From Basidiobolus meristosporus CBS 931.73 (lineage: Eukaryota; Fungi; Basidiobolomycota), in contig MCFE01000825.1 in assembly GCA_002104905.1 (NCBI GenBank), positions 1 to 33,046 on the forward strand: DNA of 33,046 nt, in the 5' to 3' direction. Below are positions 5,568 through 33,046 of the stretch, piece by piece. The notes under the pieces were generated by a model that saw only the letters and a list, made by a program, of their open reading frames with translations, did no database searches and was not told the DNA's origin. Position 1 is the stretch's first letter. Each line of letters begins with the position of its first letter. The translations under genes and the position numbers were made by a program.

Positions 5568-6337
5568 TGTGGTAGGGTAAACATACCTCCCACAGACAAG
5601 TTTATTCATATAGCCATTATGATATACTTATCCATATTTTATCTTATCAGTATTATCCCCATATGATGTTTACCCTGATTAGTTATTAGCATTAGTTGTC
5701 CCAGATGTTATTCAGCTTTGTGATCAGTATATGTATCTACATAAGGCAAGTATCTGTGTCAGTACCCGTGACACATGACCTAGGTCTTTGTTACCATCCC
5801 TACCATTTCAATACCATATATGGTATTTCTATGTTGCACAAGTTTCAGACTACTGATTCCTGATTGGTTGGATGTGCTGTGCCTTTTAGAACCTTCCAGG
5901 ACATTCTTGGCATATTTTTAGCTCATAGTGATGTCATCAAGAATTCCACTGATGCCTAGAATCTTCTAGAACCTTGTCATTAGTAATCACTTGGCAATCA
6001 AGAAAAGTACTTAAGGGAAAGCAATCCCTCATCAATAAATCATCCCTTCTAACAGTAACACTTCTACCTTATTGATTAGCAGTTGATCATTGTACCTGCC
6101 TTCAACAGTACATCTCAGACCTGCCCTCAAGGAGCTTTTCAGGGTAGTGCTCAAGACACACAGAGGCCTTTGGAGACACTTGGAGCACCTAGGAAGCTAG
6201 AGAAGCAGGAGCTTTTACCATAGTGACATATTGACAAAGACACCAGCAGTTTAGACACAGAGGTTATTGCACCCATCAGACACCTCACACACCTTGTGTT
6301 GTATAGCTTCTCCCAGGAGTACCTCTACACCACCACA
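5568..6337 (+). repeat. 5' LTR of gypsy-2 (770 bp)
   Basis: TGTGGT...ACCACA termini; ~95% identical to 13213-13959; followed by TATT and the PBS. Confidence 0.9.
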
Positions 6338-6341
6338 TATT

Positions 6342-6360
6342 TGGCACCCAATGTGGGGGC
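6342..6360 (+). other. Primer binding site, tRNA-Lys(CUU) type
   Basis: TGGCACCCAATGTGGGGGC versus canonical TGGCGCCCAACGTGGGGC. Two of the mismatches are CpG transitions. Lies 4 nt after the LTR. Confidence 0.85.
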
Positions 6361-6411
6361 TTTGACTGAACTGCCCCTAGACAACTTAAGAAAGAATAAA
6401 TTATCAAGACT

Positions 6412-6964
6412 ATGAATCTACCTTTACCAGGATTGCAAGGAACCCCTTTCTTTGATGGAGCTACAGTTAAAGCTTTCATCAAGAGGTGGGAGCTTTTCTG
6501 CAGAGCCCACAAACTACCTGAGACCATTATGGCTGAAGAGATCCCCCCTTACAGCACAGATAAGATCATGCTCTCATCATATGAAAGAAATGATCTGCTG
6601 ACAAATTGGACCCTCTTGAAGAGCTACTTGATTGATGAATATGGAGAGAGACAAGTTGACTACACACTTAAAGACTTGGAGAACTTTGCTTATAGCAAGC
6701 ATAAGCTGCCACCATTGAAAGAATACTCGAGTGGCCTTGAGAAAATTGGAGAGTCACTGAAAGCCCAAGGAGTTATTACTGATCTCCCTTTATCTGCCCA
6801 CCTTCTCAGAGCACTACCAGAAGACCTGGTGAGAAGGATTGAAAACAATCCTACTGTGAAAGCTATGAGTTCACTGCCTGGATTTCAGTTAGCTAAGCAG
6901 ATTCTACTTTCCCCTGAAGAAGCCTCACCAATCAGAAAGCTTCTTTCAAGCTCAGCACAAAACC
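6412..6964 (+). pseudogene. gag: gypsy-2 Gag, N-terminal part (split by copia-1)
   Basis: ORF 6412 (GTPFFDGATVKAFIKRWE...) runs into the copia LTR at 6965 and rejoins 11841 in frame. Confidence 0.8.
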
Positions 6965-7493
6965 TGTTGTAAGAGTCTTGAAGATATTGGAAGTGATTGG
7001 GAGAACAAGTAGATTATGTGGTTTTCACTTAATGTTTTACTGAATGTAAAAGTAGTATTTATACTTTAGACTTGTTCCATTGTGCCATTGATCATAGTGC
7101 CAGAGAGAGCTGTATATCTTGTAATTTGATATTTTAGGGTCATATGCATGTCAATTTTGATCTCAAATTGGCACTGTATGGCACCATCTGGCATGCTATG
7201 GCACTATTGGGCACTATGATCAGCTGGAATGATGGAACAAGTCTTTTTACCTGGTCTTGGCATTACAAGCACGTAGAATAGGTTAAGGAAGGTCCCAAGA
7301 ACATGTGTGCAAAGTTTGGGGCTATTTGGAGAACTTAGAATATTTTTACCAAAATACCGGGTACCCAAAACATGAAAATTCTCACAGTAAATCCCAACAA
7401 GGAATTTGGTCAGTATTCTCTAGGACTTGAAGGTAATGATCTAAGTGACTATGTTAGGTGAATATTTAGGTGGAAATACAAATTTTTACAACA
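6965..7493 (-). repeat. 3' LTR of copia-1 (contains a MITE and an inverted block)
   Basis: Matches 11489-11835 once 7068-7247 is removed. A PPT-like TTGAGTGGTAG lies on the minus strand at 7494-7504. Confidence 0.9.
7068..7244. mobile_element. MITE, 177 bp, 13-bp TIR, 3-bp TSD
   Basis: AGACTTGTTCCAT (7068-7080) and ATGGAACAAGTCT (7232-7244), flanked by TTT on both sides. The empty site TATACTTTTACC is present in the LTR copy at 18072. Confidence 0.9.
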
Positions 7494-7504
7494 CTACCAC
7501 TCAA

Positions 7505-10500: not shown

Positions 10501-11457
10501 AAGTGTTCTATTGTCACCCATGAAAACCTTCTTAATTGGAATTTCTTAATATTGGGTGAAAAGTTCTTTTTGGTGTGTAAGGTGTTGAGAAGCTCCAGAG
10601 TCAATATACCACATCTGACAATCCTTATTTGTGGTCAAACATAGTGAAGATATGAATATTCTATCTTCAGTTGTTGCAGCATTTCCATATTCAGGCTTCT
10701 TTTGCTGATAATCTCTCTTTTTGAGACACCAGTCTGATGTGTGTCTTTTCCTTTTGCAGTAGTTGCAAAAAAGGTTGCTGTTGCCTTTGTAGGGTCTTGG
10801 GTACCTACTTTGTTAGCTATTGTTGCTTATTAAAGCATTTTCTTCTTCCTTCTTTTTGGTGCTTAATTTTCTTAATTCTTCATCCAGGAGCCTTCCATAT
10901 ACATAGTTTAAGGTCAAATCTTCAGTTCTGGACTCCAGGGCTGATACAAGGCCCTGAAACTTGTCTGTCAGGCTATTCAGGATGGTAACTATCACATCCT
11001 CATCAGTAGTTGGTATGCCCACAGATTCCATCTCATCTACCAGCAGGGTAATTCTGTTAGTTGGATTTTCCATTTCTTCTCCTGGCAACATCTTTGTAGT
11101 AAAGGATTTTTGTCTCAGATACATTTTTTGTCTCAGATATATTTTCTTTGCAGCTGAACATGACTGGTAGGTGTCTTCTAATGCCTTCCAGGCATTCTTT
11201 GTTGTTTTGCTCTTGAGCATTAAATTAGCAATTTGTCTTTAACATTAAGGCAAATGCAGTTAAAGGCACTTTGTTCTTTCTTCTGGTACTTCATGGCTTC
11301 CTCTCCCATGTTTTAGGAGGGCATTCTTCTCCCATGACAATATCCCAAAGGCCTCTTTCTTGTAGCAGCATCTTCATCTTCACCTTCCACACTTGGTAGT
11401 TAGAGCCATCCAACTTTTCAGCAGGGGGAAAATTCCAGTAATAGCAGTAGTAGACAT
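7505..11457 (-). pseudogene. pol: copia-1 Gag-Pol polyprotein, frameshifted and with stops
   Basis: EKLDGSNYQVWKVKM (gag), LWHRIFGH, TFIDDYKRYTW and SDSGGEYTS (IN), KARLVAKGY, FAPVAK and LYVDN (RT, YVDD decayed), YSDADWG, TEAEYMA and KHIDIRYHF (RNase H). Confidence 0.95.
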
Positions 11458-11475
11458 TGTAGAGAGTGACAGCTT

Positions 11476-11488
11476 GGGGCTTATAATT
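11476..11488 (-). other. copia-1 primer binding site (internal tRNA-iMet half-molecule type, decayed)
   Basis: Minus-strand AATTATAAGCCCC directly abuts the LTR. Compare GGCTATGAGCCCC in copia-2 and the GGTTATGGGCCC type of Drosophila copia. Confidence 0.65.
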
Positions 11489-11835
11489 TGTTGTAAGAGT
11501 CTTGGAGATATTGGAAGTGATTGGGAGAACAAGTAGATTATGTGGTTTTCACTTAATGATTTATTGAATGTAAAAGTAGTATTTATATTTTACCTGGTCT
11601 TGGCACTACAAACACATAGAATAGGCTAAGAAAGGTCCCAAGAGCAGGTGTGCAAAGTTTGGGGCTGTTTGGACAACTTTGAGAATTTTCATGTGCTGAG
11701 TACCTGGTATTTTAGTGAAAATATTCTAAGTAAATCCTGACAAGGAATTTGGTTGGTATTCTCTAGGATTTGAAGGTAATGATCTAATGACTAAGTTAGG
11801 TGAATATTTGGGTGGAAATACAAATTTTTACAACA
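11489..11835 (-). repeat. 5' LTR of copia-1 (347 bp)
   Basis: 8-bp terminal inverted repeats; adjacent to the PBS and the TSD. Confidence 0.92.
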
Positions 11836-11840
11836 AAACC

Positions 11841-12565
11841 AAGTTAGCCAAGACTTATTTAATCCCAGTAATCAAAGCACTCAAATTCAGGTGCTGACAC
11901 AGCAACTAGAAAAACTCTCTTTGCTACTTGCCAGCAAAGCATATGGGCAGAAGCCAGTAGAGAAAGAAGTCAAATATACATGCATGTGGTGTGACTCTGC
12001 CAACCATTCCAAGAGAAATTGCCAAGAGCTTCAGTCATTACTATCCACAGGTGATGTCCTATATAGTCCTAAGGGAGATATAGTCAGTAAGCATAGTGAC
12101 AAATTATCCACAGCATTTGGACAAGGAGGAATGAGAGTCCAATACAAGCAAGTCACCTCTCATACAAGAAAGGTGCACCTCCATGGAGAAGAAGATCCTG
12201 ACTACTTTGATCCAGCTGAAGTTCTGAACTTTGACTATGAGGATCCCAGAGAGGCCCAAGATCATATAGCTTCAATTTATGCTTCAAAGAGATACCATCA
12301 TGAGAAAATGGCTAATCCAGGCCCAGCAACAAAAGTACCAAGATGTGAGCCAGAAGTTGTGATTGAGAAGAAAGCAGCACCCCCATTAATTTTACAAGAG
12401 TCTGCCAAGGCCATCAACTACCACATGCAGCCTAGAGTCAAGCAAAATGGAACCCCTGAGGCTCTGACAAGTCATATACTAGGAAGCAGCATATCAGTCA
12501 AGGTTGGAGAGCTACTCAGTGTATCACCATCTGTAGAAAAACTCTGGATGAGCACATCAGAATAA
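11841..12565 (+). pseudogene. gag: gypsy-2 Gag, C-terminal part with CCHC zinc knuckle
   Basis: CMWCDSANHSKRNC (C-X2-C-X4-H-X4-C); in frame with 6412-6964 after removing copia-1 and one TSD copy. Confidence 0.8.
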
Positions 12566-13068
12566 GAAAGCATTCAATTGAAGCAACCCAAGGCAACCAG
12601 GTCAGGACAGTTCAAGGAAGCAAAGATATCAGTAAGCTGCATTAAAGCCAGAAACACTACTTATCAGTGGCAACTGCAACAACTACAGGAACTGTGCATA
12701 ATTGAGAAATCCTATGTCATATAGACAGTGGTCCTGAGATATGTGTGATGCCTTTGGAGGCTTGGAACCAACTACCATGCAAAGACCTATTCCCCATAGA
12801 CACCAATATCAATTGGAGCATGAAGGATGCCAACTCAGGGCAATCAAAGCGTTTAGGAATTATTCACAGCTTCCCTCTCATCATTGAAGGAATACCCCAT
12901 GAGATCCTAGTATTCATTTGTGCAAAGGCTAACTTTGAATTACTTCTTGGAAGACCATGGGAGGTGAATGTAAGAGCAACTGCAGTGAACTACCCAGATG
13001 GTTCAGCATGGTATACTACATACTTAGAGAGCTCAGGACTAACAGCAACCTTCTGTGATGTGGAATAA
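12566..13068 (+). pseudogene. gypsy-2 aspartic protease relic
   Basis: LCHIDSGPEICVMPLE (DSG at 12724-12732) followed by FELLLGRPW; stops and a frameshift lie upstream. Confidence 0.8.
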
Positions 13069-13212
13069 ACAGTATCTGATCAATGACTTCATGTAGATTT
13101 CTATACCAAGAGAAGACAGGTGGCTTCATTGGGGATGACTGAGAGAGCACTTTGTTCTCCATACTTACAGTGGTTAGCTAAAAGGTTTCAGGGAACTTTT
13201 TACCACAAGTGG

Positions 13213-13959
13213 CCCACAGACAAGTTTATTCATATAGCCATTATGATATATTATCCATATTTTATCTTATCAGTATAATCCCCATATGATGTTTACTCTG
13301 ATTAGTTATTAGCATTAGTTATCCCAGATGTTATTCAGTTTTGTGATCAGTGTATGTATCCACATAAGGCAAGTACCTGTGTCAGTACCCATGACACATG
13401 ACCTAGGTCTGTGTTACCATCCCTACCATTTCAATACCATATATGGTATTTCTATGTTGCACAGGTTTCAGACTACTGATTCCTGATTGGTAGGATGTGC
13501 TGTGCCTTTTAGAACCTTCCAGGACATTCTTGGCATATTTTTAGCTCATAGTGATGTCATCAAGAATTCCACTGATATCTAGAATCTTCTAGAACCTTGT
13601 CATTAGTAGTCACTTGGCAATCAGGAAAGTATTTAAGGGAAAGCAATCCCTCATCAATAAATCATCCTTTCTATCAGTAACACTTCTACATTATTGATTA
13701 GCAGTTGAACACTGCACCTGCCTTCAACAGTACATCTCAGACCTGCCCTCAAGGAGCTTTTCAGGGTAGTGCTCAAGACACACAGAGGCCTTTGGAGACA
13801 CTTGGAGCACCTAGGAAGCTAGAGAAGCAAGAGCTTTTACCATAGTGACATATTGACAAAGACAGCAGCAGTTTAGACACAGAAGTTATTGCACCCAACA
13901 GACACCTCATGCACCTTAAGTTATGTAGCTTCTCCCAGGAGTACCTCTATGCCACCACT
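13213..13959 (+). repeat. 3' LTR of gypsy-2, lacking the first 21 bp
   Basis: Aligns to 5589-6337; ends CCACCACT instead of CCACCACA. Confidence 0.9.
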
Positions 13960-15136: not shown

Positions 15137-16167
15137 GCAGCCTACAGCTAGTTCTGTATAATGCTACCATACCAATTAACCAAATTATATTTCCTTTACT
15201 TACCTCCCCTTGTGCAATTCATATATCCCACTGCAAAATTGCCCCTCTTTATTTGCATACCCACTACTACCTTGGGTATTCCACATGTAGTTCAAAACAA
15301 AAAAAAGTATGGCCTCCTGCTCACTAATCTCTACATATATGCACACCTGCCACTTGACATACTTCTGTCTCATCAACTTTATGGCTTTTTAGTGTGCTAC
15401 TTGCAGAGTTCCCATATATTTTGTATTGCTGGTAATGTATACATCTTGCAAATATATGCTTGGTTACCACCACTTTTTCCATGAATACCTCCTGAGTATG
15501 CACAAAAAACTTCTCAGTATTTAGCCAATGTATCTCTTCTCCCTACCAGATTCTAGTCCCCATTATAGGTGCACTCTGGCTCTTGTTTGTGTGAATTACA
15601 TATTGAATAATGCAGCTGGCTTGCAACAAAGAGAAGCCTGGCATACTTTGGTAAAGTTGTTCAAATAAAATTCACTTGCTTGTTGTGCCAGATCCAACTT
15701 TTTATTACTCAACAGAATACTCATTCATTGGGCTGCTTAGCTTCTTGATGCCAAAGGCATAGGTGCCTCCATGCCCACATCTGTCCTCAGTATTTTCCAA
15801 CTCTTCCTGGCTGTCCTCCATATACAAACTCATCTCATCCATGACATACTCAGAGGTAATATTCTTGATGAGATAGGAAAATAGCAATATCTGCTACTTG
15901 ACTTGTCTTCCTATCTCCCCACATATTTGCTCCATTGGAAAATCACAAAAGGTAAAGCAAGGCCCAATACTCTCTGTACACCTAGTAAGATGGATTAGAG
16001 CATGGTTAAGGTAGTAGTAGAGATCTATGCATTTAGCTTTATGCATGTAGTATAGCTGCTCAAATCCTATCACAAACCCCTTGCATAAAACCAGCAGAGG
16101 GGTCAAGTTAGCATTGGGATCTATTTCTGGATAAATACCCCTACAATGTCAGCACAAGAGTCCCAAT

Positions 16168-16498
16168 CCCTATGAGAAATCTCCAACTTGGAGTTCATCT
16201 GATTTTCCTCTGGTATTATGCTGGTATTATACTGGTGTTCTGCTAGTATTCAATTGGTACTTTGCTGGCATTTGACAGGTGTTTTTGGTGCACAATATCA
16301 AATGAAATTTCTGATGGATGTAATGGGCAGCTAATTAACAAACTTGGCATGGATGCTAGTTGGGCTAGTCTCCTCCTGGTGAGTTTGTTTGCTTGCCAGC
16401 CCATCAGCTAACCACAAAGATATTGAGAGAGAAACTTGTAATTAAGCTAATATTATGAAGGTATTTTACTGGCCTTTTTTTAATTTTTTTTCTTAGGG
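16168..16498. mobile_element. Non-autonomous CMC/EnSpm MITE, 331 bp
   Basis: Termini CCCTATGAGAAA...TTTTTCTTAGGG; TSD AAT (16165-16167 and 16499-16501); absent at the homologous site of copy C (~29620). Confidence 0.88.
16210..16286 (+). repeat. Subterminal 11-bp tandem array of the MITE
   Basis: Seven units starting at 16210, 16221, 16232, 16243, 16254, 16265 and 16276; consensus CTGGTATTATG. Confidence 0.8.
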
Positions 16499-18071
16499 AA
16501 TGCTTCCAGTGTGCTCTTGGTATATATGTCTTCAGAGGGCAACTTGAGTAAATACATATCCAGCTCATCAGTCCTTACACTTATATTGTTGCATATGTGC
16601 ATGAATATTGATTGGAGCCTGTGAGAAGTTGTTTAGATAGCAGATATTCTGAAATATTTTGCAAATTCCAATAAATTTCTCCAGTATCCTGAAGGGCTCA
16701 TTCAGTGCAAAATGCCACATGTACAGCTTAGCTATCAGTATAGGTATATTGTTGAAATGCAAATACATCTCCAGTTAGCAATTAATTCTATACTCTGGTC
16801 AATGGCTTATTGCTTGCCAACTTTGCTGCAATTGCATGCACACTTCTGTATGTTCTCTCTGTAGGAAGATAATGTTCTTAGTATAAGTGCTTGGATAATG
16901 TGAGTGTGTATGAGTTATGGAGTAAATCCCCTGGATGTCACACATATGACAGCAGTACCATCTATTGTGCCCAGAAACGTTGGCTATCTTGCTAATAGCT
17001 GGGGTATCACCAATGCAATGATTATGTGTGCTTTGATATGATAGCCTTTTAGTAGTATACTGCTTGAATGCATGCATAATTCATCCAGCAGTGGATACAG
17101 GCAGCTATCCAGGTTAAACAGTGATTGAAGCCCAGATACCAGTGAGACTACCATCAGATTTCTGCTTGGATACCATTGGATAGATGGCAGATTCAGGCTA
17201 ATAAGAATTAGCAGCCAGCAGGATTTGCTGGTAGAGTACCTGTTTGATGAGAATTCATAAAGTGCTAAGCCAAAGGTATGGTCACATATACCATCAAAGC
17301 AGTCCTAGCATCTTAGTGGTTTGCAATGTTTGGCATAAAATATATTGGAGATATTTGCACTTGATTGATACTAAGTGCAGTACATTATAGTTTCATCATA
17401 TTTGCCAGACTGCATGAGCTTCTTCAGGTGGGGTATTACTGCAATATATCCAGAGTGTGAATAATGTTTTCACTTACGGTTGTGGTTTTCTGAAACATTG
17501 GACACCTTGCAATGGCAGCATTTTCTGATGTGAATGGTATGCCACTGTTGATACATACAGGTATCTAGATGGTCTCTGGGCCATTTGTAGCCAGCTGCAT
17601 GACATTTTCCATTGGTACCATGTACATGTTAACTTGAATATTGTAATGATTTTGGCAAGAAGTAGTAGTAAGCCCTCTAAGCACAACTACTGATATCCAT
17701 GGAAACACATCACTTCTCTAGCCACAATATTGCATTATTCACCAGTAGAAGGATTACTGGGCACATTTGGCACAACAGAGTATCCTTGGCATTTTTCCAC
17801 AGGTGTTGTTTTGTCACATATTGGGATTTTGCCATGCTCATGAAGGGGACTATTGTTAGGGGAGATGTTGTGTTGTATGATGAGTAGTTTAGGACTTGTT
17901 CTGCAATGTAGAGGCTAATCAATAATAAACAACAACTTCCAGTATGCTAATACTGAAATAGTTTATTGGGAGTTTGATATACCAATAGAAGATATAGCTC
18001 CCACTAATCTCCTCGGTCTTGGGCTTAAAATATACTATAAGCAGTGATTCTCACTTCTACAGCAGTGTTCT

Positions 18072-19563: not shown

Positions 19564-19918
19564 CCCTACGAAGAATAACCATGATGATTCTATTAAAAGA
19601 CTCCCACTAAATTGAAGTCCTGTGACTAAGAGGTATTAATACTATCAGAACACTCTACAACAACTGTGGCTAAATAATTGCACCTTGTATTTCTCAAAAA
19701 ACTTAGTCAACACTTTTCATGACAACAATATATGAGTGGCTGTTGATTTATCTGCTGCCAGCTCTCTCACTTTCTGATTTCAGGCACTCAATCACCTCCT
19801 ATGTTTGTGTACAATGATTGGCTAATGCCTCTTTTTCACATTCCTTACTTCCTGACTTAACCAGCTCTCTTACATCTCATTCATTCAAATTAATTTATTT
19901 CTGTTGAGATTTTGATTG

Positions 19919-20304
19919 TGTGAGTACTCAATGTAGTACCCACTCTTTGCCCAAGAGTTCTCCCAAGAGTTCCCTCCAGAGTCCTACCCGAAGTCCTCCA
20001 GTACCCTCCCTATGATTCCCCCACGCGTCCTCCCCTCCTATCCCTGCCCTTATCTAGTTAGAACACTTACCATAACAGGAAGGTGTTCACACCCCTATTT
20101 TATAACACATTGTCTATTGTCTAAGCCCCCCAAGTGATATATATATCTACCCAATTGAACCAGGAAGAACAACGAGATTTGGACGAAATAAACAGAAGTC
20201 TTTATTACCTTGCTACCTTCTATCGGAAGCTATTCTGAACCAAGTGGTACTGACTTGACCTACAAGCTCTCCCACTCACCAAGTACAGTCAGTAATAACC
20301 CACA
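19919..20304 (+). repeat. 5' LTR of gypsy-1
   Basis: TGTGAG...CCCACA; direct repeat of 26299-26684. Confidence 0.97.
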
Positions 20305-20308
20305 TATT

Positions 20309-20326
20309 TGGTGCCGTCTCTGCGGA
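20309..20326 (+). other. Primer binding site, tRNA-His-like
   Basis: TGGTGCCGT 4 nt after the LTR is complementary to an ...ACGGCACCA 3' end, as in metazoan-type tRNA-His. The host tRNA is not available to confirm. Confidence 0.6.
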
Positions 20327-20345
20327 AATAAGCACAAGTGAGGTA

Positions 20346-21218
20346 ATGACTACTACAATCAAACTAAAGACATACAAGGGAAAGAGAGAGAAAGCCCTTG
20401 AGTGGTTCAATAAGTTTGAGAGAGTTGCGGTTGATGCAGGATGGGACGACAATAAGAAAGTAAGAGAGTTTGCAAGACATATGGAAGGGTCAGCATGGCA
20501 ATGGCATTATGGGTTGGAAGACGCAGTCAAAGACAACTGGGATGCACTAGAAGAAGCCTACAAGACACGCTTTCTATATGCCAAAGGATACCACTACGAA
20601 GCCCTTCTACTGTCCTCACGGAAGAGAAGCAGTGAAAGCTATGAAGCCTACACTGAACTGTTTCTCCAACAAGTTTGATGTCTCCCGAAGGACAAAATTG
20701 GCAAACAACAGCTCATGAGGTATTACATCATGGGCTTAGACGACAAAATAAGACGTAGGGCGTCCAAAGAACAACAGGGATGTAAAACGTTGCAAGAGTT
20801 GGTCAAACAAGTACGAGGGGTCATCTTGCTATGGGGGCTACCCTATAGTGATACAAATGATCAAAGGACAGGGATCCCCCATAAGAAAGGAAAAATTGCC
20901 TCCCCAAACAACTGTGAGTTAGAGGAATTACGGCAAAAGGTCCAAGAACTCTCAATTAACAATGTCCAAGAAGTCCCCAAAGAAGGTGATAAACTCTGGG
21001 AAGCTGTTGTAGATCTAAAGGCCCAGGTTCAAGTCCTGACCCAACAGATGGAACAACCGCAACAACAGTATCCATGTTATGTGTGTGGAGAAGTAGGTCA
21101 CCGGGCCCATGAATGTGAAAAACGGTATGGAAGAGAAGCCCTACCGGACACAAAAGAGAAGAAGGCGTCAAAAGACAGGGTCCCTTGCCAGGAGGCCAAC
21201 GGGACTCAGTCAATCTAA
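20346..21218 (+). pseudogene. gag: gypsy-1 Gag (290 codons, one in-frame TGA at 20676)
   Basis: ORFs 20346 and 20715 are in the same frame. LKTYKGKREKALEWFNKFE retrotransposon gag N-terminus; CYVCGEVGHRAHEC zinc knuckle at 21075-21116. Confidence 0.93.
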
Positions 21219-24200
21219 GCCCTCCGGTCAGGACAATCAAAGTGCGGAAGAAGAAGCGTCAACATGATGCTTCTAGAGAGGAGGCAAAGGAACCTGTAGT
21301 AGAGGTTCCGTCAAAAGGAAAGAGCGCAGAATTAGGTGAAGAAGTACGGAATGAACCTTGGGAAGAAGTGTTAAAGCAAACAAAGAACACTAGCACGTCT
21401 TCCCATGGCCTATTCCCCATAATGAAGGTACTAGAGCAAACCAAGGCAACCCTCCCAATAACCAATTTACTGGGACTGGCCCCGGCTCTAGTCAAGGAAC
21501 TGATAGAGGGATTGAAGGAGATAACAACCCTCCATGTCAACCAGACAGTCCTGCAAAAACCGAATAAAGGTACATACGTAAAGGTACGTATAGAGAATAA
21601 GGAGATTCTCGCCCTTATCGACACAGGATCCTCTATGTTGATCATGTCAGAGTCATTAGCAAAACGTCTAAAACTAAATATAGTCCCCAACGACACCATT
21701 CGAGTACGGCTAGCGAATGACCAACTGGATACAATGGTAGGTGTGGTGCCTAATTGCCCCATTTGGCTAGGCAACTTGATAATACGCCAAGATGTTGTGG
21801 TCCTACCCGTTGCAGCCAACGACTTACTCATTGGCAAGAGTTGGTTTATCCAACATAAGATGGATATACTTTACAGTGCATCTGAACTCAGGTGGGATAC
21901 CAAGAGTATCCCACTGATTCATATCACCGATGAGAGCAAGGCGCGTAGCAACAGTGTGACGATCAGAGAGGTGAAACCGTCGCAGTCTCCGATCATCACA
22001 CAAAAGGTGATAAAAATACCACCCGCCAGTGAGACGGTGATCTCATTAGAAACACCAATAGCTTATTCAACGAGCATAAGAATGATAACAGCAGCAAAAG
22101 CATCCGAGCAACTGGAAGGAATCTCAATCCCTAAAGTATGGATACCACCAAAATTTGAAACGCAAAGCCTGAAATGCTTAGTGGTTAACAATGGGCAACA
22201 CACGGTGACATTGCCTAGAGGAGTGCCATTGTTAAACTGAGAGGAAGTTGACGGAAACAACCAAGGACCACCTCCAAACGAAGAACCAGAAGAAGAACTC
22301 CCCAAACTAGATGTGGACCCCGGTCTACCGCCTACGTTACAAGACAAATTCCTAGAAGGAATACGTCCACTTGCCCAAGTATTCTCTAAGAACCAAGTAA
22401 TTGGTCATATACCTGGGGTATATCACCAAATCCACCTTGCCGACAAATACCCCATCAAGCAAAAAGCCTATAGGAATTCAAAAATTGACACAGACTATAT
22501 CAAAGAGACAATTGAAACTTTATTAAAAGACATCATTACAGAGAGCCAGTCTCCGTGGGCCTCCCCCGTAGTGATAGTCCCGAAGAAAGACGGAAAGCGA
22601 CGCTTTTGCATTGACTACCGGAAATTGAACGCCGTCACCCGGAAGGACGTGTATCCGCTACCGCAAATAGACAACCTCTTGGACAGATTAATTGGAGCTA
22701 AATATTTTAGCTCTCTTGACTTAATCTCCGGGTATTGGCAAGTAGAAGTAGCCCCGGAAGATTGACCCAAAACCGCTTTTGTAACATTGTTTGGATTATA
22801 CAAATGGAACCGACTACCCTTTGGCTTGTGCAATGCCCCCACTACGTTCCAAAGGATGATTGACAAGGTGCTAGGAAATCTACGATGGGAATGCGCCCTT
22901 GTGTATCTGGACGACATCATGATATATTCCCCCGATGTAGAAGAACATATACACAACGTGCAATGTATCCTGACATCCCTCCTTGAGAACCAACTCAAAC
23001 TACATCCCAAGAAGTGCCATTTCCTGTATACAAAATTGTTGTTCCTGGGCCACGAGATCTCGGCAGATGGAATATACCCATCTACGTCACTCCTGAAAGC
23101 CATTCAAAATGCACCTGCACCAAAGGACATTAATGCAGTGTTGGGATTCCTAGGATTAGCCGGCTACTATTGCCGCTATGTCAAAAACTTCGCAACAATA
23201 GCAGCCCCCCTATACAAATTGACGCAAAAGGGCCAGTGTTTTGTATGGTTGGAGCCTCAAAAGAGAGCATTCAATCAGCTGAAACATTCCCTGACGTCAC
23301 CGCCAGTGTTACAATTTCCCAATTGGGATGCGAGATTTTTTATTAACTGTGATGGAAGCCTCACCGGTATAGGCGCCATACTGGGACAATATCACCAACC
23401 CGGCAAATTCCACCCAATCAGATACATGAGCTGTTTGCTAAACAAACACAAACGCCACTACCCCGTTGCCGAGATAGAATGTCTGGCTGTTGTTTATTCA
23501 ATTAAACAATTCCATACATACATACATGGTCGCCAATTCACAATAGCAACGGACCACAGCGCACTGGTCTGGCTGATGAAAACTAAAGACTTTACCGGCC
23601 AACTAGCACGTTGGGCCCTACAACTACAGCAATACGACTTTGAAATAATTCACCGCGCTGGCAAGAAACACCAGGACGCAGACTTTCTCAGTCGCTATCC
23701 CATTTGCCAAATACGTGTCAGTGATGAGTACGAGGACGTAATCTGCTTTAAAAAAGGGAGGTATCCCAAACACGTCATTACAAACAAACAGAAGAGAGAA
23801 TTTCAAAGGAAATGGTGTCAGTACAAAGTACAAGAAAATTGACTATGGTTCCTCCAAGGACAGTCCAGAGCCGAGGTACCCCCACTAGCAGCCCGTGAAG
23901 AAATCATACAAGAAAGACATATGTCATTAGGACACGCTAACCCCCTAACAACATATAACATGTTAAGAAAAACGTTTTATTGGCAAAAAATGATGACCAA
24001 CGTTATGAATACATTACAAAGATGCACCACTTGCAAAAGATTCAACCGGAGTCAGAAGATAGGGACAACCGCACCAATACCGGTTGACCTGCCCTTCCAC
24101 CAAGTAGGGATTGACTTCGTTGGCCCCTTTATGAAAACAAAGAAAGGAGAACGATACATAATAATTGCTACCGATTATTTCTCAAAGTGGGTAGAAGCCC

Positions 24201-24955
24201 AAGCCGTCTGCAATAAAGATCAGAAGACAACCGCCCAATTCATTCTAGAACACCTCATCTGCCAACAGGGATATCCTCAGATACTCCTGTCCAACAATGG
24301 TGGTTCCTTCCTGAACGACACCGTGGCCCACCTGTGCGAAATGATGGGCTTGAAACAAGTCTTCACGGCCACGTATCACCCCCAGACTAACGGATTAACC
24401 GAGAGGATGAACCAGACGTGTTGCCGCATACTGGAGAAGCTTCACTGGGAACTTCCCCAATCATGGGCCGAGCTGCTCCCACTGACACTCCTAGCAATGC
24501 GCACCACACCGAATAAAACGACAGGTTTCTCCCCATATGAAATCCTATATGGACAAAGACCCAAGTGGCGGGAGGAAGCTGGATTGACGATGGAAGGTGT
24601 CCCCCTGACGACACATAACAACTATATAGAAAGGTTGATACACCATATTGCCCACCTATACATAAAAGTATTTGAAAATGTTGACAAGCACCTTCCCCCT
24701 CCACCCAAAAATGAGAAACTAACGAGACAAAAGTGGAAACCAGGCAATAAGGTGTGGTACAACCAAACCGTTGAAGGCCTCAAGTTCCGCCCACGATTTA
24801 CACCCCAATGGATTGGCCCATGCACCGTTATCAGTTTGGACCACGGACCAAAGTACACCATCACCCTGAATAATAAGACAATCAGCAACATAGCGCCAGC
24901 CCATCTGAAACCGTTTCATGATGATCCACTAATCATCACTGAGACCAAAGTGTGA
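21185..24955 (+). pseudogene. pol: gypsy-1 Pol (PR-RT-RNase H-IN), single frame with three in-frame TGA (22238, 22763, 23840)
   Basis: LIDTGSS (21620), RFCIDYRKLN, LPFGL, YLDD (22904), CDGS/EIE/TDH RNase H, HHCC, GIDFVGP, SNNG (catalytic D>N at 24293), NGLTERMN, GPY/F-like C-terminus, no chromodomain. In the -1 frame relative to gag. Confidence 0.96.
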
Positions 24956-25084
24956 TTAAACGATTATCAGGACAAGGATAGAGGAAGACACGGGATACAT
25001 TTGATGTTTATTAGAGGAGATTTTAGTCGATATAGGTACAAATAATATGCGTGAGGGAGTTCGCCCAAAGGGGAGAACAAAAGA

Positions 25085-26254
25085 ATGCATATGGAAAGCG
25101 CCAAAGGAAACAGTTCACCCAAAACTGGCAATACCCCTCCCACTAGCGAGAACCAAGATGATATCAAAAACAAAACCGACCTGCAAATGTTAAGAGATAT
25201 GGTACAAGCGTTACGTACGACAAGAGCCACCTATGAAGAGTTGTTTGCCGGAGTAGTCATGCTAATACAAGACACAATCAGAGAGTGACGAGACAAGTTA
25301 CCCACGCCAATACAAAGCATGGAGATACTACCCAAGAAGACCATGTACCACCTAAGAGGAGGTTCCTTGATCATTAAGGAGAAGGACACCGTGCTGATTC
25401 CTGTATCCATACTGGACACAGTCAGACAAAAGACACAAGGAATCAACTGTTGCGCCCTCACAAGACCTCAAGAGCCCCCCTGTTTTGTTGCATACTTGCC
25501 ATTAATAGGTACCACGGTTGTTGAGGTATACGCAGACCTGGTACAAGCTGCAAGAGCACCACAAGTAGAACTCCCGATTGAAGGACTCCTCCGAGAAATT
25601 CGGGAACATCTCGAACCACATTTCCAAGAAGGAACCATCTTAGAGAAGATACGCAAACGGATTAAATACACCGGCCAGTTAACCCATGCAATCCACCAAG
25701 TTGCTGTGTTACAACTATTACAGTGGTTTACCATAGGACAACTCAGGAATCAGTACAAAGTCCAACTCCAAGAAGCCAAAGAAACCGCCGCGGATTCTGT
25801 AGAAACCATGAGGCAAGTACAAAAGCGCCTCAATCGCGCCACAGTTTCTACGGAAGAACTACAATACGTCTTGGAAGAAGCAAAAACTCGTTATCAACAA
25901 CGGGTGACTGCCGACCAAGTGTATGCCCTCTTCAAAAGGTCCCCCGCCGTCATATTGAACACAAAAAGGACAAGCCCCAATAACGTTTGCAAGATAAAGA
26001 AGCAAGACTTTATTGCGCTATTGCACCTTTTCTTGTTCTCCAACCCTCCCGAGGAACTTACCCAGAACCCTATGGTTTGCCAACTATTTGGCTCGGTGGA
26101 AAACATCCCTCGAGCAACACAGGCCGCACCCCACTCTGCCGCCAAATGGTATCAGGTACTTGCCCGCAATCCCCTTGTGAGTGACAACCAGCAATGGTAC
26201 TACGGTGACTCCCCATGCTCCGTAAACGAAATCAATCCTGGAGAAGCAAGTTAG
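25085..26254 (+). pseudogene. gypsy-1 ORF3, ~389 codons, unknown function (one in-frame TGA at 25286)
   Basis: ORFs 25085 and 25319 are in the same frame. Lies between the pol stop and the 3' LTR. No signal peptide or transmembrane segment is visible; the centre looks helical/coiled-coil. Confidence 0.75.
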
Positions 26255-26298
26255 TCAAAGAACTTCGAGGACGAAGCTCCCACTTAACCCCCGGGATA

Positions 26299-26684
26299 TG
26301 TGAGTACTCAATGTAGTACCCACTCTTTGCCCAAGAGTTCTCCCAAGAGTTCCCTCCAGAGTCCTACCCAAAGTCCTCCAGTACCCTCCCTATGATTCCC
26401 CCACGCGTCCTCCCCTCCTATCCCTGCCCTTATCTAGTTAGAACACTTACCATAACAGGAAGGTGTTCACACCCCTATTTTATAACACATTGTCTATTGT
26501 CTAAGCCCCCCTAGTGATATATATATCTACCCAATTGAACCAGGAAGAACAACAAGATTTGGATGAAATAAACAGAAGTCTTTATTACCTTGCTACCTTC
26601 TATTGGAAGCTATTCTGAACCAAGTGGTACTGACTTGACCTACAAGCTCTCCCACTCACCAAGTACAGTCAGTAATAACCCACA
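26299..26684 (+). repeat. 3' LTR of gypsy-1
   Basis: Differs from the 5' LTR at 26370, 26512, 26554, 26564 and 26604. Confidence 0.97.
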
Positions 26685-26689
26685 GATTG

Positions 26690-28219
26690 TACATTCATTG
26701 TCAGTTGTAGTAACCAATATAAGTCCCTGTACCCATCACTAAAACTAAGCCCAGCCCCACACTCAATACATAACTCCATAAAAACTACCATTCAATGAGT
26801 AAATCTACTGCAATGTCCTTTTTACATGTCTTTGGCAGCCATCCTGCAGCTTTTGCCACTGCTCATTCTCAGGTTCCTATGTGTCCTGGTCTTCAGCCAG
26901 CACTACAGGGTCTAGCACCACATCAGCCAGTCTCTGCAATATATTCTTGCAATAGTCAGGTGCATTTTCCCAATCACTGTTCTTGAAGAAGAGCTGCAAC
27001 CTCTATGTATGCCTATTAATGTTAAAAAGCTCCACTGTAGGAGTTGTGATAGTCTTTTAGGTTCTTTATGATGTTGCTTTGTCAGTCATCTGGATATCTA
27101 CTTTGACTACAATGGTGGACATGAAGGCAGTGGTAGACAAATTGCCTTTCTCTGCAAACTCATCTACCTCACTTGAGGGTAGCTCAGCTTACTGCACTTC
27201 CAACTCTTGAAAAGTCAGCTGCTTTCTTGGTGGCAATTCTCCTTGACTATGTTGGGGTTCAGCCAGCTCTGAGCTAACAGCTTAAATTGGTGAGAACTGC
27301 AGCTTTTCTTCTGACACTTTCCTCTCTCTGGCATGAGAAGACCTTTTTTCCATACCTCTACCTTTTTCCCTGCCAAATCTTTCACTGCTACTTTGATTGA
27401 GTACATTTTCTCTTTGGTTAATGCTGCACTGGTGTATCCATTGCTGCCTGCTTGCCCTTGTTAGCATTCTCCTGGTAACCTGACATTTCTTTGCTGCATG
27501 CTTGAGCTATCAGCCCTGATTGTGATGTGCTCCAGAGAAAGCAGTAGGTTTTTATCACTGTGAGATCCTTCACTGCTATTGTGACTAAATGGTTCTTGTA
27601 TTGTACATTGTTTTCTCCTAGATGAATGCTGCACTAGTGCATCCATTTTTGCCTGCTTCTCCCTAGCCATCACTCTGACAGGAACCTGACATCTTTTTGC
27701 TGATTGCTTGGAGCTATCAGCCCAGCTGGTGATGGGCTCCTGAAAAGCTACAGGCTTTTGTCACTATCAGGTCCTTGCCTACTAATGAGACTTAGTGCTT
27801 CTTGTATCAAACTACATCTTCTACTTAATATGTACTTCACTGGTGCATCTGTTCAAGCCTGACTGTCCCTCATTAGCACTCTTCTGGCTACCTGATGTTT
27901 CTTTGCTGCTTGTTTGGAGTATTCACCCCAGCTTGTAACACCTTATTGAGGAAGCTGCTGAGTCTTAGCCATTGCATCATTGTTCATTGACCTTTGATAG
28001 CTTCTGCTATTATTGAGATACTTTCTTAGTGCTCCCATTCTGGCCCAAAATACATTGGCACACTTGAATACAGGATAATGCTCCTAGAACAGGCTAAGTG
28101 CATTCTGCTTTGCCTTGAGTTCTTGATGGTCCCAGGTGTGCTTACCTTCAGGTGTTGCAGTGCTAGACTTCTAACTGCTTCTGGAGTATTTGTCCACTCT
28201 TCATCATTGCATGCAATGG
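26690..28219 (-). pseudogene. Accessory gene of CMC copy E (continues at 19730-19918)
   Basis: LEAIACNDEEWTNTPEAVRSLALQHLK/WDHQELKAKQNALSLF*EHYPVFKCANVFWARMGALRKYLNNSRSYQR and DWENAPDYCKNILQRL..VLAEDQD..GWLPKTCKK are homologous to copy A. Confidence 0.65.
27421..27920. repeat. Diverged tandem repeat, ~205-bp period, inside the accessory gene
   Basis: CACT(G/A)GTG.ATC..T...GCCTG anchors at 27427, 27632 and 27838 (the third unit is partial). Confidence 0.75.
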
Positions 28220-30807
28220 CTTCAAGGATCCCTATGAAATATAATTTGGTCCAATAAGTGGATCTGATCTGGATCAGCCATCAGGATCCCATTCAGAGAC
28301 CATCATAGTACTGGCAGCTTGGAGCTAGTGACCCTCTTAACAATCTTATGATGGGATCACAACAGCATTTTGCTAATCTCACTACCAAATAAAGTGATAA
28401 AACTTGACAAAATTTCATTGGTGCTGTGACAATAGTAGCATGGTATTATTGAGGTCTTCTTGCACTTTGCAACTACTTTAAGTGGATCCAGCCAGCCAGG
28501 ACATCCAATTGCCTTATATGGCAGAAACTTGATGGTATCTCAACAGCCTTACAGCAAGACTTTGATAGCATTATTATGGAAGTATGGTGGCCTACAGTTG
28601 GTTTTGTATAATGCTGCCATACCAATTTACCAGATGGCATTTCCTTTTTCTACCTCCCCTTGTACAAATCATATATTCAGCTGTAGAATTGCCCCTCTTT
28701 ATTTGCTTACACACTACTACCTTGTGTATTCCACATATAGCTTGAATAAAAAAACTATGGTCTCCTGCTTACTAACCTCCACAAACACAAACACCTGCTG
28801 CAATTGACATACTTCTATCACCTCAACTTTACGGCTTTTGAGTGTGATACTTGCAAAGTTGACGTATACCTTGTATTGCTGGTAACATTTACTTCTTGCA
28901 AACATATGCTTGGTTGTTGCCACTTCTGCCATGAATACCTCCTGAATATCTGAAAAGAACTTCTTGGTATTTAGCCAATATATTCCTTCTCCCTGCTGGA
29001 TTCTAGTCCCCCTTGTAGGTGCACTCTGGCTTGTGTTTGTGTGAATTCTGTCTTGAAAGGTGTATAAGTTGGCTTGTGACCAAGAGAAATCTAGCATATA
29101 TTGGTAGAGTTTTCCTAATAGAAATCAGTTGCTTGTTGCACCCAACTCAACTTTGCATTACCTAACTGATTACCTATGCATTGGGGCTGCTTAGCTTCTT
29201 ACAGCCATAGGCATAGGTGTCTCCATGTCCACATTTGTCCTCAGTATTTTCCAACACTTCCTGGCAGTTGTCCATATACCAACCCATCACATCCATGATT
29301 GACTTAGAGGTAATATTCTTGATGAGATTGGGATATGGTAGTACCTGCCACTTGACTTGTATTCCTATCTCCCCACATATCTACTCCATAGGAAACTCCC
29401 AAAAGGTGAAGCAAGGCCCAACATTCTGCACACACCATGCAAGATGGAGTAGAGAATGGATATAGAAGGGGCAGAGATCTACATGTTCAGCATTATGTTT
29501 GTAGTATGGCCGCTCAAATTCCGTCACAAACTCCTTGCACAACAGCTGTAAATGCGGCTAGTTTGCATTGGTGATCCTCTTCTAGAAAAATACTCCTACA
29601 ATGTCCACATAAGACTCCCAATACTTCCAATGTACACTTGGTGGGAATGGCTTTAGAATACCACTTGAATAAGCACATATTCAGCTCATCCAGTCTTTGC
29701 ATCTGTATTGTTGCATATGCATATGAATACCAATTGGAGCTGCTGAGAAGTACTTAGGGTAGTAGATACTTGGTAGTATCTTGCCAATTCTTTAAGGTTT
29801 CTCTGGTATCTCAAAGGCCGCATTTAGCTTGAAATGACCCATGTACAACTTGGTCATCAGCATAGGGACATTGTTGAAAAGCAAATGCATTGCTCACAGT
29901 GGAAAGCTTTTGCTCCAACAGACACCCACTCTCTTAAATATCTCTGGTTAACATTTGATCTCATATTCCAGCCAATGGCTTATTGCTTGCCAACTTTGCT
30001 GAAATTGTATGCTGACTGCTCTATGTTCTCTCTGTGGGAAGGTGATTTTCTTAGTGCAGGTGTTTGGGTAATACTAATGTATGTGAGTTATGGAATAAAT
30101 CCCCTGGATCTTGCACGTTTGACAACAATACCATTCATTGTGCTCAGAAAACCTGCTATCTTGCTGATGGCTGGGGTATCTCCAATGCAGAGAATAATAT
30201 GAGCTTTGACATGATGGCCATTTACTGCTATCCTGCTGGAAAGCATAGAAAATACATCCAGCAATGGATACAGGTAGTTATCCCGGTTGGACAATGATTT
30301 AGGCCCAGATACCAGTGAGACTACCATCAGATTATTGCTCTGATACTCTAAGATGGGTGGCAGATTCAGATTGTTGGGAATCAGTGGCCAGCAGGATTTG
30401 CTGGTAGAGTAATTGTTTAATGAGAATCTATCAAGTGCTAAGGCAAAGGCATGGGCATGCATACCTTCAAAGTAGCCCTTGCTTCTTAGCTGTTGGTAAT
30501 ATTTGTCATCAAATATATTAGATGTGATTGCACCTGATTGATACTGAGTGTAGTACTGTATAGCTTTGCAATATTTGTTGGACGGTATTGGCTTCCTCAT
30601 ATGGGGTGTTACCGGAATATATCCAGAGTATGAACAAAGTTTCTCCTGAATGGTAGTGAATACCAGACAATTTGGACTTGTTGCAATGGTAGCATTTTTT
30701 GATGTGAATACCATGCAACAGATAACACATGCTGGAATCAATACAGTCTCTAATCATATGTTGCCAGCCACATTACTGTTGTTCATTTGAACCATGTATG
30801 TGGTAAG
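28220..30807 (-). mobile_element. CMC/EnSpm transposon, copy C (truncated by copia LTR)
   Basis: Begins CCCTATGAAAT exactly where homology of E to A ends; GGATC-core subterminal motifs at 28260, 28271 and 28284; transposase on the minus strand. Confidence 0.8.
28450..30800 (-). pseudogene. Tnp2-family CMC transposase relic, copy C
   Basis: Cys-rich N-terminal DCIDSSMCY..CYHC; NIFDDKYY..FALALDRF..SCWPLIPNNLNLPP..GPKSLSNRDNYLYPLLD..LCIGDTPAISK. Confidence 0.88.
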
Positions 30808-30950
30808 TGTTGCAATTTAGAAGTGATTTGAAAATGAGGAGCTTATCAAGAAATAGTGATAATAGCTGAACCATTGATTATTAATAACAAAGCTCAGTAT
30901 TTATACCTTTGTAGAGGTAATACAGCTGTAACACTAAGTAAGGAGGGTTT
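30808..30950 (-). repeat. Inverted copia-2-family LTR fragment (143 bp)
   Basis: Reverse complement of 31176-31319 (roughly 85% identical); ends abruptly where the + strand LTR starts. Confidence 0.88.
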
Positions 30951-31319
30951 TGTTGAAATATTGGACTATTTGGTATCATTCAGCAGCTAAAAATTTACTT
31001 AACAATTCTAGGCTAGTCTTAGTCACTGTAGGACTCATTTACTGCCTTAACTTTGCCACTTTCTCCAGATATATGATCTTATGATTATTCCCTTATAGTC
31101 AGGATCAAATAAGCACTATTACCAAACATTATGTACTAACCCTGAAACTGTTACAGAATGCTCCTGAATATTGAGAAACCCTCCCTGCTTAGTGTTGCAG
31201 CTGTATTACTTATACAAAGGTATAAATACTGAGCCTCTTTATGAATAAGCAACAGTTCAACTATTATCACTATTTCTTGATAAGTTCCTTATATCCAAAT
31301 CACTTCTTAAATTGCAACA
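30951..31319 (+). repeat. 5' LTR of copia-2 (369 bp)
   Basis: TGTTG...CAACA termini; homolog at 18337-18706; the PBS follows directly. Confidence 0.93.
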
Positions 31320-31355
31320 GGCTATGAGCCCCAATTGCCTTAATCTATTCTAAAG

Positions 31356-33046
31356 ATGACTTCTACCAGCAAACAAAGCAATACCAACATCGTCCCTGTA
31401 AAGGAGAGGTTTGATGGGAAGAACTACAGACTTTGGAGAATCAAGATGCCAATCCACCTTGAGGAAAGAAAGCTTTGGAACATAGTAAAAGGAAAGGAAG
31501 TTGAGCCTAAAGGAACAGCAGAAGATGTGGAGAAGTTTCAAGAGAAGGAGAGAAAGGCCTTCAATGCAATATGCATCAATGTGCAAGACTCCTTCATTGG
31601 ACATATCCATGCCTCAAATACTGCCAAAGCAGAATGGGAATCCTTAGAGAAGATCTTTAGAGCAAAGTCAGTATCAAGCAAGCTTTATTTGAAACAAAAG
31701 TTCTTCAACATGAGAAAAAAGCCAGATGATGACATGCTACAACTCATTACCAGAATGGAGACACTTGCAGAAGAACTTTACAGCATTAATGCTGGTGTAG
31801 ATGATGAAGAAAAGATACTCTGTCTGCTTTGCAGCCTACCAGACAAGTATGAGCTACTCATACTTTCTTTTGAAAGCAGAGAAGACAACTTGACTTTAGA
31901 CTATGTCAAAGGAAGACTTCTCCATGAAGAACTCAGACGTAATGATCAAGCAGAGAAAATTGAAGATAATGCTTTATTCAGTTCAGAAAGGCATACAGAA
32001 AAGAAGGGAAAGCAACAAAACCAAAGAAAACCTGGCTGCTGTAACTACTGTAAGAAGCCAGGACACCAGGCAAGAGAATGCAAGAAGAAACAAGCAGACA
32101 AAAAACAGAAACTAGAGCAGGCAAACCATATAACTACTGATGAACAGTTATTTGTAACTGTACAAGAGAGTGCAAGTAACCAAAGTAATGAATGGTATAT
32201 TGACTCTGGAGCATCACAGCATATTTGTGGCATAAAGGACTGGTTCAGCAACTTAAAGACTATTCCCGTAAGAAAGGTTTATCTGGGAGATAACTCTGCA
32301 TTGGAAGCTACCGCCAGTGGGTCTATACAACTAAATATGAGTGATAACTCAGTGGCAACAACAGCAAAACTGACTGATGTACTCAATGTACCTGGAATAG
32401 CTAAGAACCTACTCTCAGTCAGTAAAGCAACTACTCAGGGACTGAAATTTGTTTTTACTAAGCTGAGCTGCTGAATATTGAGTGAAAATGGACAAAAATT
32501 AGCTTTGGGAATCAGTGATCACAATATATACAAGTTACAATGCAAGATAATTGTACCTGATTATGTCAACATTGCTGAAACTGATGAAACCAACTGGGAG
32601 ACATGGCATAGGAGGCTAGGACACATAGGGGAACAGAAAATGAGCAAATTGGTGAAAAATCAGCTTGTTTTGGGCCTAAAATACTCAATTCCAATCAAAT
32701 TGAATGTTTGTAAGGGATGTTCATATGGCAAACAAGCTAGGCAATGTTTTAAGAGCTCAGAAGGCATCAATACCACCAAAATATTGGCTATTGTACACTC
32801 AGACATATGTGGCCCCATGAGAACACTGTCCTTTGGAGCCAAGAGATACTTTATGACGTTTACTGATGACAAGACAAGATATACATGGGTGTACATCCTC
32901 AAAACAAAGGATGAAGCTTTAGAGACGTTGAAGCAATTCAAGAACATGGCAGAAACTCAAACTGGGTGTAAATTGAAGGTACTACAAAGTGACAATGGAG
33001 GAGAATACTGCTCAAAGGAGTTTGCAAGATACTGCTTGTCTACTGG
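31356..33046 (+). pseudogene. pol: copia-2 Gag-Pol (gag, CCHC, protease, integrase N-half), one in-frame TGA at 32472
   Basis: RFDGKNYRLW, CNYCKKPGHQAREC, WYIDSGASQH; after the TGA the same frame gives WHRRLGH, CKGC, HSDICGP and SDNGGEY up to the window end. Confidence 0.94.

What the first reader, a model, noticed from the sequence alone, without database searches (positions are those of the whole stretch)
25085..26254. Unknown ~389-aa third ORF at the env position of a gypsy element
A sense-strand ORF starts 130 nt after pol and ends 44 nt before the 3' LTR, with one CpG-type TGA. A frame this long is very unlikely by chance (about (61/64)^389, below 1e-6 even allowing one stop), so it was probably under selection in the active lineage. 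It lacks a signal peptide, furin-type site or transmembrane anchor, so it does not look like Env. It has a predicted coiled-coil core (QLRNQYKVQLQEAKETAADSVETMRQVQKRLNRATVSTEELQYVLEEAKTRYQQ) and a basic helical C-terminus. Extra ORFs are known in plant Tat/Athila/Ogre elements, and transposon-encoded anti-silencing factors exist (VANC of VANDAL). In a genome that destroys CpG-rich repeats, a counter-silencing or targeting factor is a testable hypothesis. This is the best candidate for an undescribed system here.
Basis: partly seen in the sequence, partly recalled or inferred. Interest (0 to 1): 0.8.

Follow-up and report, generated by a model that had tools for sequence, protein, structure and literature searches.

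The report
Orphan third gene in gypsy retrotransposon
A young, many-copy gypsy-type jumping gene carries a real third gene after its polymerase gene; its protein matches no known family, has no membrane anchor, so it is not a working envelope protein, and it likely serves as an internal helper for the element's own RNA or particle.

Summary
A complete 6,766-nt Ty3/gypsy element (19919-26684; LTRs differ at 5 of 386 bases; GATTG target duplication) has a 389-codon sense ORF between integrase and 3' LTR, with one internal TGA. Its codon-position composition matches pol. Public DNA runs show it is a regular part of a many-copy family. Differences from a diverged copy lean synonymous (12 of 21, 7.0 expected, p=0.02; small sample). 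No credible homolog was found in 1.84 billion representative proteins, Pfam, NCBIfam, PHROGs or PDB, and no fold match. It has no signal peptide or transmembrane segment in any frame, so it cannot be a working Env. Nothing supports anti-silencing. Best reading: a soluble coiled-coil accessory protein, function inferred only. Extra ORFs at this position are in print for plants, rotifers and fungi, and this scan noted six such genes on other DNA, none a sequence look-alike.

The parts
19914..19918 (+). target-site duplication GATTG, left copy (right copy 26685-26689)
19919..20304 (+). 5' LTR, 386 nt, TG...CA
   Evidence: 5 differences from the 3' LTR; ends confirmed by loose ends of contigs at 26299 and 26684
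20309..20326 (+). primer-binding site starting TGG, 4 nt behind the LTR; resembles the complement of a tRNA-His 3' end (identity recalled, not tested)
   Evidence: sequence
20349..21218 (+). gag (Retrotrans_gag, CCHC knuckle), one internal TGA at 20676
21119..24955 (+). pol in the -1 frame relative to gag: protease, RT, RNase H, integrase; no chromodomain matched; internal TGA at 22238, 22763 and 23840
24956..25084 (+). 129-nt spacer; holds 5 of the 12 listed small indels among related contigs
   Evidence: table 4
25085..26254 (+). ORF3, 389 codons, one internal TGA at 25286-25288; orphan protein
25346..25492 (+). ORF3 residues 88-136: beta-type, cysteine-bearing stretch with weak, non-significant likeness to a stretch of an F-type Env
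25748..25900 (+). ORF3 residues about 222-272: predicted coiled coil
   Evidence: HCR, E 0.0008, under cut-off; low confidence
25895..26251 (+). ORF3 residues 271-389: predicted small alpha/beta domain (pLDDT 63, pTM 0.54), no fold match
26255..26298 (+). 44 nt before the 3' LTR: a short inverted repeat and a C-rich stretch in place of a plain purine tract
   Evidence: sequence
26299..26684 (+). 3' LTR

Best explanation
ORF3 is a long-resident third gene of this gypsy family, and it likely encodes a soluble accessory protein that is predicted to self-associate through its central coiled coil and would help the element's own RNA or virus-like particle inside the cell (export, transport or assembly), as retroviral accessory factors or the Cer1 CERV protein do. 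Shown: the frame, its place, its presence across the family, pol-like composition, no signal peptide and no membrane anchor. Supported on a small sample: purifying selection. Inferred: translation from a subgenomic RNA (a third cistron cannot be reached by ordinary scanning), oligomerisation, and the RNA or particle target. This particular copy is dead (five in-frame TGA stops across gag, pol and ORF3).
For: Open frame far beyond chance. Base composition by codon position almost identical to pol (A/C/G/T at position 2: 0.34/0.24/0.14/0.28 against 0.36/0.21/0.15/0.28), and codon usage trained on gag and pol scores this frame best of the three plus frames (0.104, 0.022, -0.082). Summed contig depth over ORF3 bins (19,500-42,400) is like that over integrase bins (22,000-53,100) in run X1, and ORF3 sequence is also laid from runs X3 and X4 with other organism labels. 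None of the 12 listed small indels (of 17) lies in ORF3 or integrase; 5 are in the spacer and 7 in the LTR. Differences private to the diverged X4 copy: 12 synonymous of 21, 7.0 expected, p=0.022; 5 and 4 of 21 in the other two frames; 12 of 18 and omega about 0.25 after dropping three CpG-decay rows. No hydrophobic segment over 1.52 in any plus frame from 25900 to 26700 or over 0.67 from 24950 to 25300. Precedent: CERV (PMC10309623, abstract read); accessory-factor role proposed for plant extra ORFs (PMC7264820, main text read).
Against: No direct evidence on function at all. The selection test rests on 40 of 51 rows in one 250-nt stretch, one diverged contig, and a subset chosen after seeing the data. 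The best-covered X4 contig lacks the middle of ORF3 (joins 25273 to 26097; net 777 nt, in frame) and X1/X2 hold several deletion contigs, so copies exist without it. The C-terminal part is not basic overall, which weakens an RNA-binding role. No clear splice acceptor or internal promoter was found by eye. The only database lead points to Env-type fusogens, not to RNA-binding proteins.
Confidence: 0.42

Rival explanations
1. ORF3 descends in part from an F-type envelope gene. It lost the signal peptide and membrane anchor, kept a piece of the beta/cysteine region, gained or rebuilt helical parts, and now has an intracellular job. This concerns origin and can hold together with the best explanation.
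For: Env position. ESM Atlas first hits are gypsy Env (PF07253 44%, PF12259 36% of members; score 0.90, 176 shared features) and other class I fusogen clusters for residues 69-389, and again fusion glycoprotein clusters (0.84) for residues 69-218, which leave out the main coiled coil. The single F-type Env found behind a related integrase (L025, PF12259 E 1.5e-8) ranked 2 of 132 targets by shuffle z-score against ORF3 (z 2.7-3.0); the aligned stretch is ORF3 88-136 with Env 343-396, 17 of 58 identical.
Against: Atlas recognition value is low (1377; 2300 is typical of known families), and shuffled proteins reach 0.9 in 4-10 of 100. BLASTP E=0.15 for the single pair; shuffle tests gave 74, 12, 61, 20, 2 and 13 of 300 at or above the score in six settings, and 123 of 500 for a global alignment. 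Two incompatible registers align about equally badly. A non-Env protein ranked first in both rankings, and the 132 targets are partly redundant. No match to PF07253, PF12259 or PF00523 in whole or in pieces. Six cysteines against 12; no fusion peptide behind a basic site; domain order differs.
Confidence: 0.22
2. ORF3 is a counter-silencing or chromatin-targeting factor, working like VANC of VANDAL transposons: it would bind element DNA or chromatin and keep the LTR unmethylated.
For: The host destroys CpG in old repeats (o/e 0.04-0.06), the family reached many copies, and the protein is predicted soluble with a coiled coil; VANC and the Athila domain were modelled as coiled-coil oligomers (PMC13547354, passages).
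Against: No VANC, plant-mobile-domain or chromatin-reader match. The family shows heavy transition decay. Residual CpG in this copy fits its young age. No tandem target motif was looked for or seen. A transient suppressor is not excluded by any of this.
Confidence: 0.15
3. ORF3 is a captured host or mobile-element gene fragment that rides along and is of little use to the element.
For: Deletion variants exist, among them the best-covered contig of run X4. Gene capture by LTR elements is known (PMC7264820).
Against: Composition is fully element-like; it is present family-wide and in other organism labels; synonymous excess; no cellular homolog among 1.84 billion representatives. Captured passengers are usually in one or a few copies (PMC7264820, abstract and text).
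Confidence: 0.1
4. The frame is open by chance or is the shadow of a gene on the other strand.
For: None found.
Against: The three minus frames hold 16, 8 and 20 stops; 0 of 20,000 shuffles were as open; the synonymous excess is in this frame only.
Confidence: 0.02

Closest known systems
Conserved sense additional ORFs between pol and the 3' LTR (aORF-3S) of plant LTR retrotransposons such as Athila and Bagy2 (Vicient and Casacuberta 2020, PMC7264820; main text read)
   Same: Same place and strand, present across the family, function unknown.
   Different: Those reviewed are called env-like and some have transmembrane domains; this one has none and shows no sequence match to any Pfam family.
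'add. ORF' of unknown function in some fungal Gypsy elements (Novikova et al. 2010, PMC2864245; section 5 and figure legend read, figure and supplements not seen)
   Same: Extra ORF of unknown function in Gypsy elements of fungi, the probable host group here.
ORF3 types of bdelloid rotifer LTR elements (Rodriguez et al. 2017, PMC5408684; passages read)
   Same: Shows that the env slot takes up many unrelated genes, and warns that coiled coils and RXXR motifs do not make an Env.
   Different: Those ORF3s are F-type Env, small TM proteins, GDSL esterase or DEDDy exonuclease; none is matched here.
F-type Env of errantiviruses (eLife RP108449, PMC13524379; passages and part 1 of section 6 read)
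   Same: Env position; weak language-model and pairwise likeness of the N-terminal half.
   Different: No signal peptide, no transmembrane anchor, no fusion peptide behind a basic site, 389 aa against 649 in the control; that survey concerns animals.
CERV of C. elegans Cer1 (PMC10309623; abstract read)
   Same: A novel, non-Env accessory protein of an LTR retrotransposon; the functional model for the best explanation.
   Different: No sequence comparison was possible; CERV comes from a spliced mRNA, and splicing is not shown here.
VANC anti-silencing proteins of VANDAL DNA transposons (recalled; mentioned in PMC13547354, passages read)
   Same: Transposon-encoded extra protein in a methylating host.
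   Different: DNA transposon of dicots, related to MAIN; no such domain is matched here.

Membership tests
Ty3/gypsy LTR retrotransposon (Metaviridae) | two LTRs, TG...CA, short target duplication | tested here: met
   386-nt LTRs, 5-nt GATTG duplication
Ty3/gypsy LTR retrotransposon (Metaviridae) | gag, then pol in the order protease, RT, RNase H, integrase | tested here: met
   Pfam matches in that order
Conserved sense additional ORF (aORF-3S) | long sense ORF between pol and 3' LTR | tested here: met
Conserved sense additional ORF (aORF-3S) | present in most copies of the family | tested here: met
   depth over ORF3 like that over integrase in X1 and X2; depth is a rough measure, and deletion variants exist
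Conserved sense additional ORF (aORF-3S) | own transcript | not testable with these tools
   no RNA run was offered
F-type Env (errantivirus, baculovirus F) | N-terminal signal peptide | tested here: not met
   highest hydropathy in windows starting in the first 25 residues is -0.62; none upstream in any plus frame; a spliced leader from far upstream is not excluded; SignalP not run
F-type Env (errantivirus, baculovirus F) | C-terminal transmembrane anchor | tested here: not met
   0.97 in the last 150 aa against 2.95 in the Env control; no such segment in the other plus frames
F-type Env (errantivirus, baculovirus F) | furin site followed by a hydrophobic fusion peptide | tested here: not met
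   four minimal R-X-X-R motifs, one across the break; none is followed by a hydrophobic peptide
F-type Env (errantivirus, baculovirus F) | homology of the ectodomain | tested here: inconclusive
   Atlas 0.90 and 0.84; rank 2 of 132 but not significant; no Pfam match; full model too poor to search
VANC-type anti-silencing factor | VANC or MAIN-like domain | tested here: inconclusive
   no Pfam or fold match listed; only the C-terminal domain gave a usable model
VANC-type anti-silencing factor | sequence-specific loss of methylation on the family | not testable with these tools
   needs expression and methylation data
Chromovirus | chromodomain at the integrase C-terminus | tested here: not met
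   no chromodomain match at E up to 1 for 23843-24952

The most novel reading that the evidence does not exclude
A gypsy element of a probably fungal genome carries a gene descended from an F-type envelope fusogen that has shed its signal peptide and membrane anchor and been kept by selection as an intracellular coiled-coil factor: an env gene turned accessory gene, in a host group where env-bearing gypsy elements did not turn up in my paper searches.
Probability: 0.2. Interest if true: 0.78.

Novelty: new variant of a known kind. Interest (0 to 1): 0.46.

Why it matters
What the non-Env third genes of LTR retrotransposons do is an open question. This one is useful because it sits in a young family with many copies, so natural variation can give a deep alignment, a selection map and a fold. 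If the weak link to F-type Env is real, it would show an envelope gene being reused inside the cell and would extend env ancestry beyond the animals surveyed so far. If not, it is one more orphan accessory gene of a known kind.

Full report
The element. The window is a pile of nested repeats with no host gene recognised among the ORFs that I scanned. A complete Ty3/gypsy element spans 19919-26684. Its 386-nt LTRs run TG...CA, differ at 5 places (1.3%) and are flanked by a GATTG duplication. Pfam finds gag with a CCHC knuckle, then protease, RT, RNase H and integrase, and no chromodomain. This copy is dead: gag has one in-frame TGA, pol three and ORF3 one. CpG observed/expected is 0.04-0.06 in the flanks and 0.35-0.70 in the parts of the element, as expected for a young insertion in a genome that methylates and erodes repeats (inference). 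The host is probably a fungus, from a weak DUF4100 match (E 0.032) and CACTA tnp2 remnants nearby; this is an inference, and an RT tree did not settle it.

The observation. ORF3 runs from ATG 25085 to TAG 26254, 389 codons with one TGA at codon 68, 129 nt behind the pol stop and 44 nt before the 3' LTR. The other five frames have 8-20 stops, and 0 of 20,000 shuffles were as open. Base composition at the three codon positions is nearly that of pol, and gag-pol codon usage scores this frame best, so the gene has been in the element a long time (inference).

The family. Two DNA runs of one sample lay 2,960 and 2,837 contigs on the 2,201 bases from 24500 to 26700; summed depth over ORF3 is like that over integrase, while the single contigs listed have depths of about 50-240. 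Depth is no copy number, but this points to a family of the order of a hundred copies that normally carries ORF3 (inference). The best run may be the sample that the window came from, so it is not independent. Runs X3 and X4, with other organism labels and X4 from a second study, also hold ORF3 sequence: one 1,161-nt contig with 53 differences, and a 379-nt piece with 55 differences and no gap. Of 17 small-indel rows 12 were shown: 5 in the spacer, 7 in the LTR, none in ORF3 or integrase; some single contigs do have gaps in ORF3. Against necessity: the best-covered X4 contig joins 25273 to 26097, a net in-frame loss of 777 nt, and X1/X2 have several deletion contigs, two of the four that I checked in frame.

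Selection. One search showed 40 of 51 difference rows for 25270-25830; 20 of the 40 fall on third positions (p=0.021). Of the 21 that are private to the X4 copy (under 5% of depth in X1), 12 are synonymous against 7.0 expected from the same substitution types (p=0.022); the other two plus frames give 5 and 4. Dropping three rows that are CpG decay gives 12 of 18 (p=0.004, omega about 0.25). The sample is small, covers 250 nt, and the subsets were chosen after seeing the rows. Whether most copies lack the stop at codon 68 was not seen directly: that place was not among the rows shown.

The protein. A polar leader (1-30), a helix (about 31-66), a beta-type stretch with three cysteines (about 80-150), helices with a heptad pattern at about 222-272, and a C-terminal domain that folds alone with moderate confidence (pLDDT 63, pTM 0.54). 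No signal peptide or transmembrane segment by hydropathy: 1.45 at most, 0.97 in the last 150 residues, against 2.95 for an Env control, and nothing hidden in other plus frames. The C-terminal part is neutral overall. Sequence searches found no credible homolog, and the C-terminal model matched no fold. Close relatives of the element itself are missing from these databases too (integrase at best about 40% identical, RT/RNase H 48%), so the blank partly reflects sampling.

The Env lead. The ESM Atlas put residues 69-389 nearest to gypsy Env and baculovirus-F clusters (0.90, 176 shared features, low recognition), and residues 69-218 nearest to fusion glycoprotein clusters (0.84). Among 40 integrase loci with enough downstream DNA, one of the 32 downstream ORFs scanned was an F-type Env (L025). 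Against ORF3 it gives BLASTP E=0.15, shuffle counts from 2 to 74 of 300 in six settings, and rank 2 of 132 partly redundant targets. That is a hint, not homology. The defining membrane features of Env (PMC13524379, passages and part 1 of section 6) are absent in any case, so ORF3 is not a working Env; a partial Env ancestry stays open at about one in five.

Mechanism. I commit to a soluble accessory protein, made from a subgenomic RNA, that oligomerises by its coiled coil and helps the element's RNA or particle (confidence 0.42). Gene reality and lack of membrane features are shown; selection is supported on few sites; expression, oligomerisation and target are inferred by analogy with CERV (PMC10309623, abstract) and with the accessory-factor proposal for plant extra ORFs (PMC7264820, main text). 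Anti-silencing (0.15) has no positive evidence: the family is heavily marked by transitions (262 against 16 transversion places in X1), and no chromatin domain was matched.

Novelty. Extra ORFs in the env slot are in print for plants (PMC7264820), rotifers (PMC5408684, passages) and fungi (PMC2864245, section 5; figure and supplements not seen). A survey of fungal LTR elements (PMC3248453, 12 of 15 passages shown) did not mention env-like genes in what I saw. Seven paper searches found no description of this family. This scan noted six similar third genes on other DNA (unchecked AI notes, which led me to PMC2864245), and none is a sequence look-alike. Verdict: a real orphan gene, a new variant of a known kind, interest 0.46.

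Noticed in passing
window 1730-2760, 19755-19907 and 26851-27460: The gypsy element is inserted into an older repeat; an uninterrupted diverged copy (72-84%) of that repeat lies at 1730-2760, and the spacing shift matches the element's length (D12, D14-D16).
   Followed up: partly
window 5628-13922: A second LTR-like pair (5628-6300 and 13251-13922, 95-96%) encloses a gypsy-like remnant with a weak DUF4100 match and a nested copia-like element on the minus strand at about 7700-11240.
   Followed up: no
window 4569-5407 (inverted), 15140-17471, 28590-30753: Three decayed copies of a CACTA-type transposon (Transposase_21 matched in two), 72-83% alike.
   Followed up: no
window 27403-27916: Degenerate tandem repeat with a period of about 206 nt (D15, D17, D19).
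   Followed up: no
window 30816-33046: A 135-nt inverted repeat (30816-31310, 87%) next to a fairly intact copia gag-protease ORF at 31344-32474 that runs off the window.
   Followed up: no
window 20305-20326 and 26255-26298: The primer-binding site starts 4 nt behind the LTR, also in contigs of X3 and X4; the plus-strand primer region is C-rich and is preceded by a short hairpin-like inverted repeat instead of a plain purine tract.
   Followed up: no
window 25047-25193: An out-of-frame ATG at 25047 opens a short upstream ORF that overlaps the ORF3 start; whether other copies have it was not seen.
   Followed up: no
L025:2867-4813; L043:9055-10868; L075:4278-5528; L067:4429-5100: Genes behind related integrases in metagenome contigs: an F-type Env (L025), two deoxynucleoside kinases (L043), and Transposase_32-type ORFs (L075, L067); 19 of the 32 downstream ORFs scanned had no Pfam match.
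   Followed up: partly
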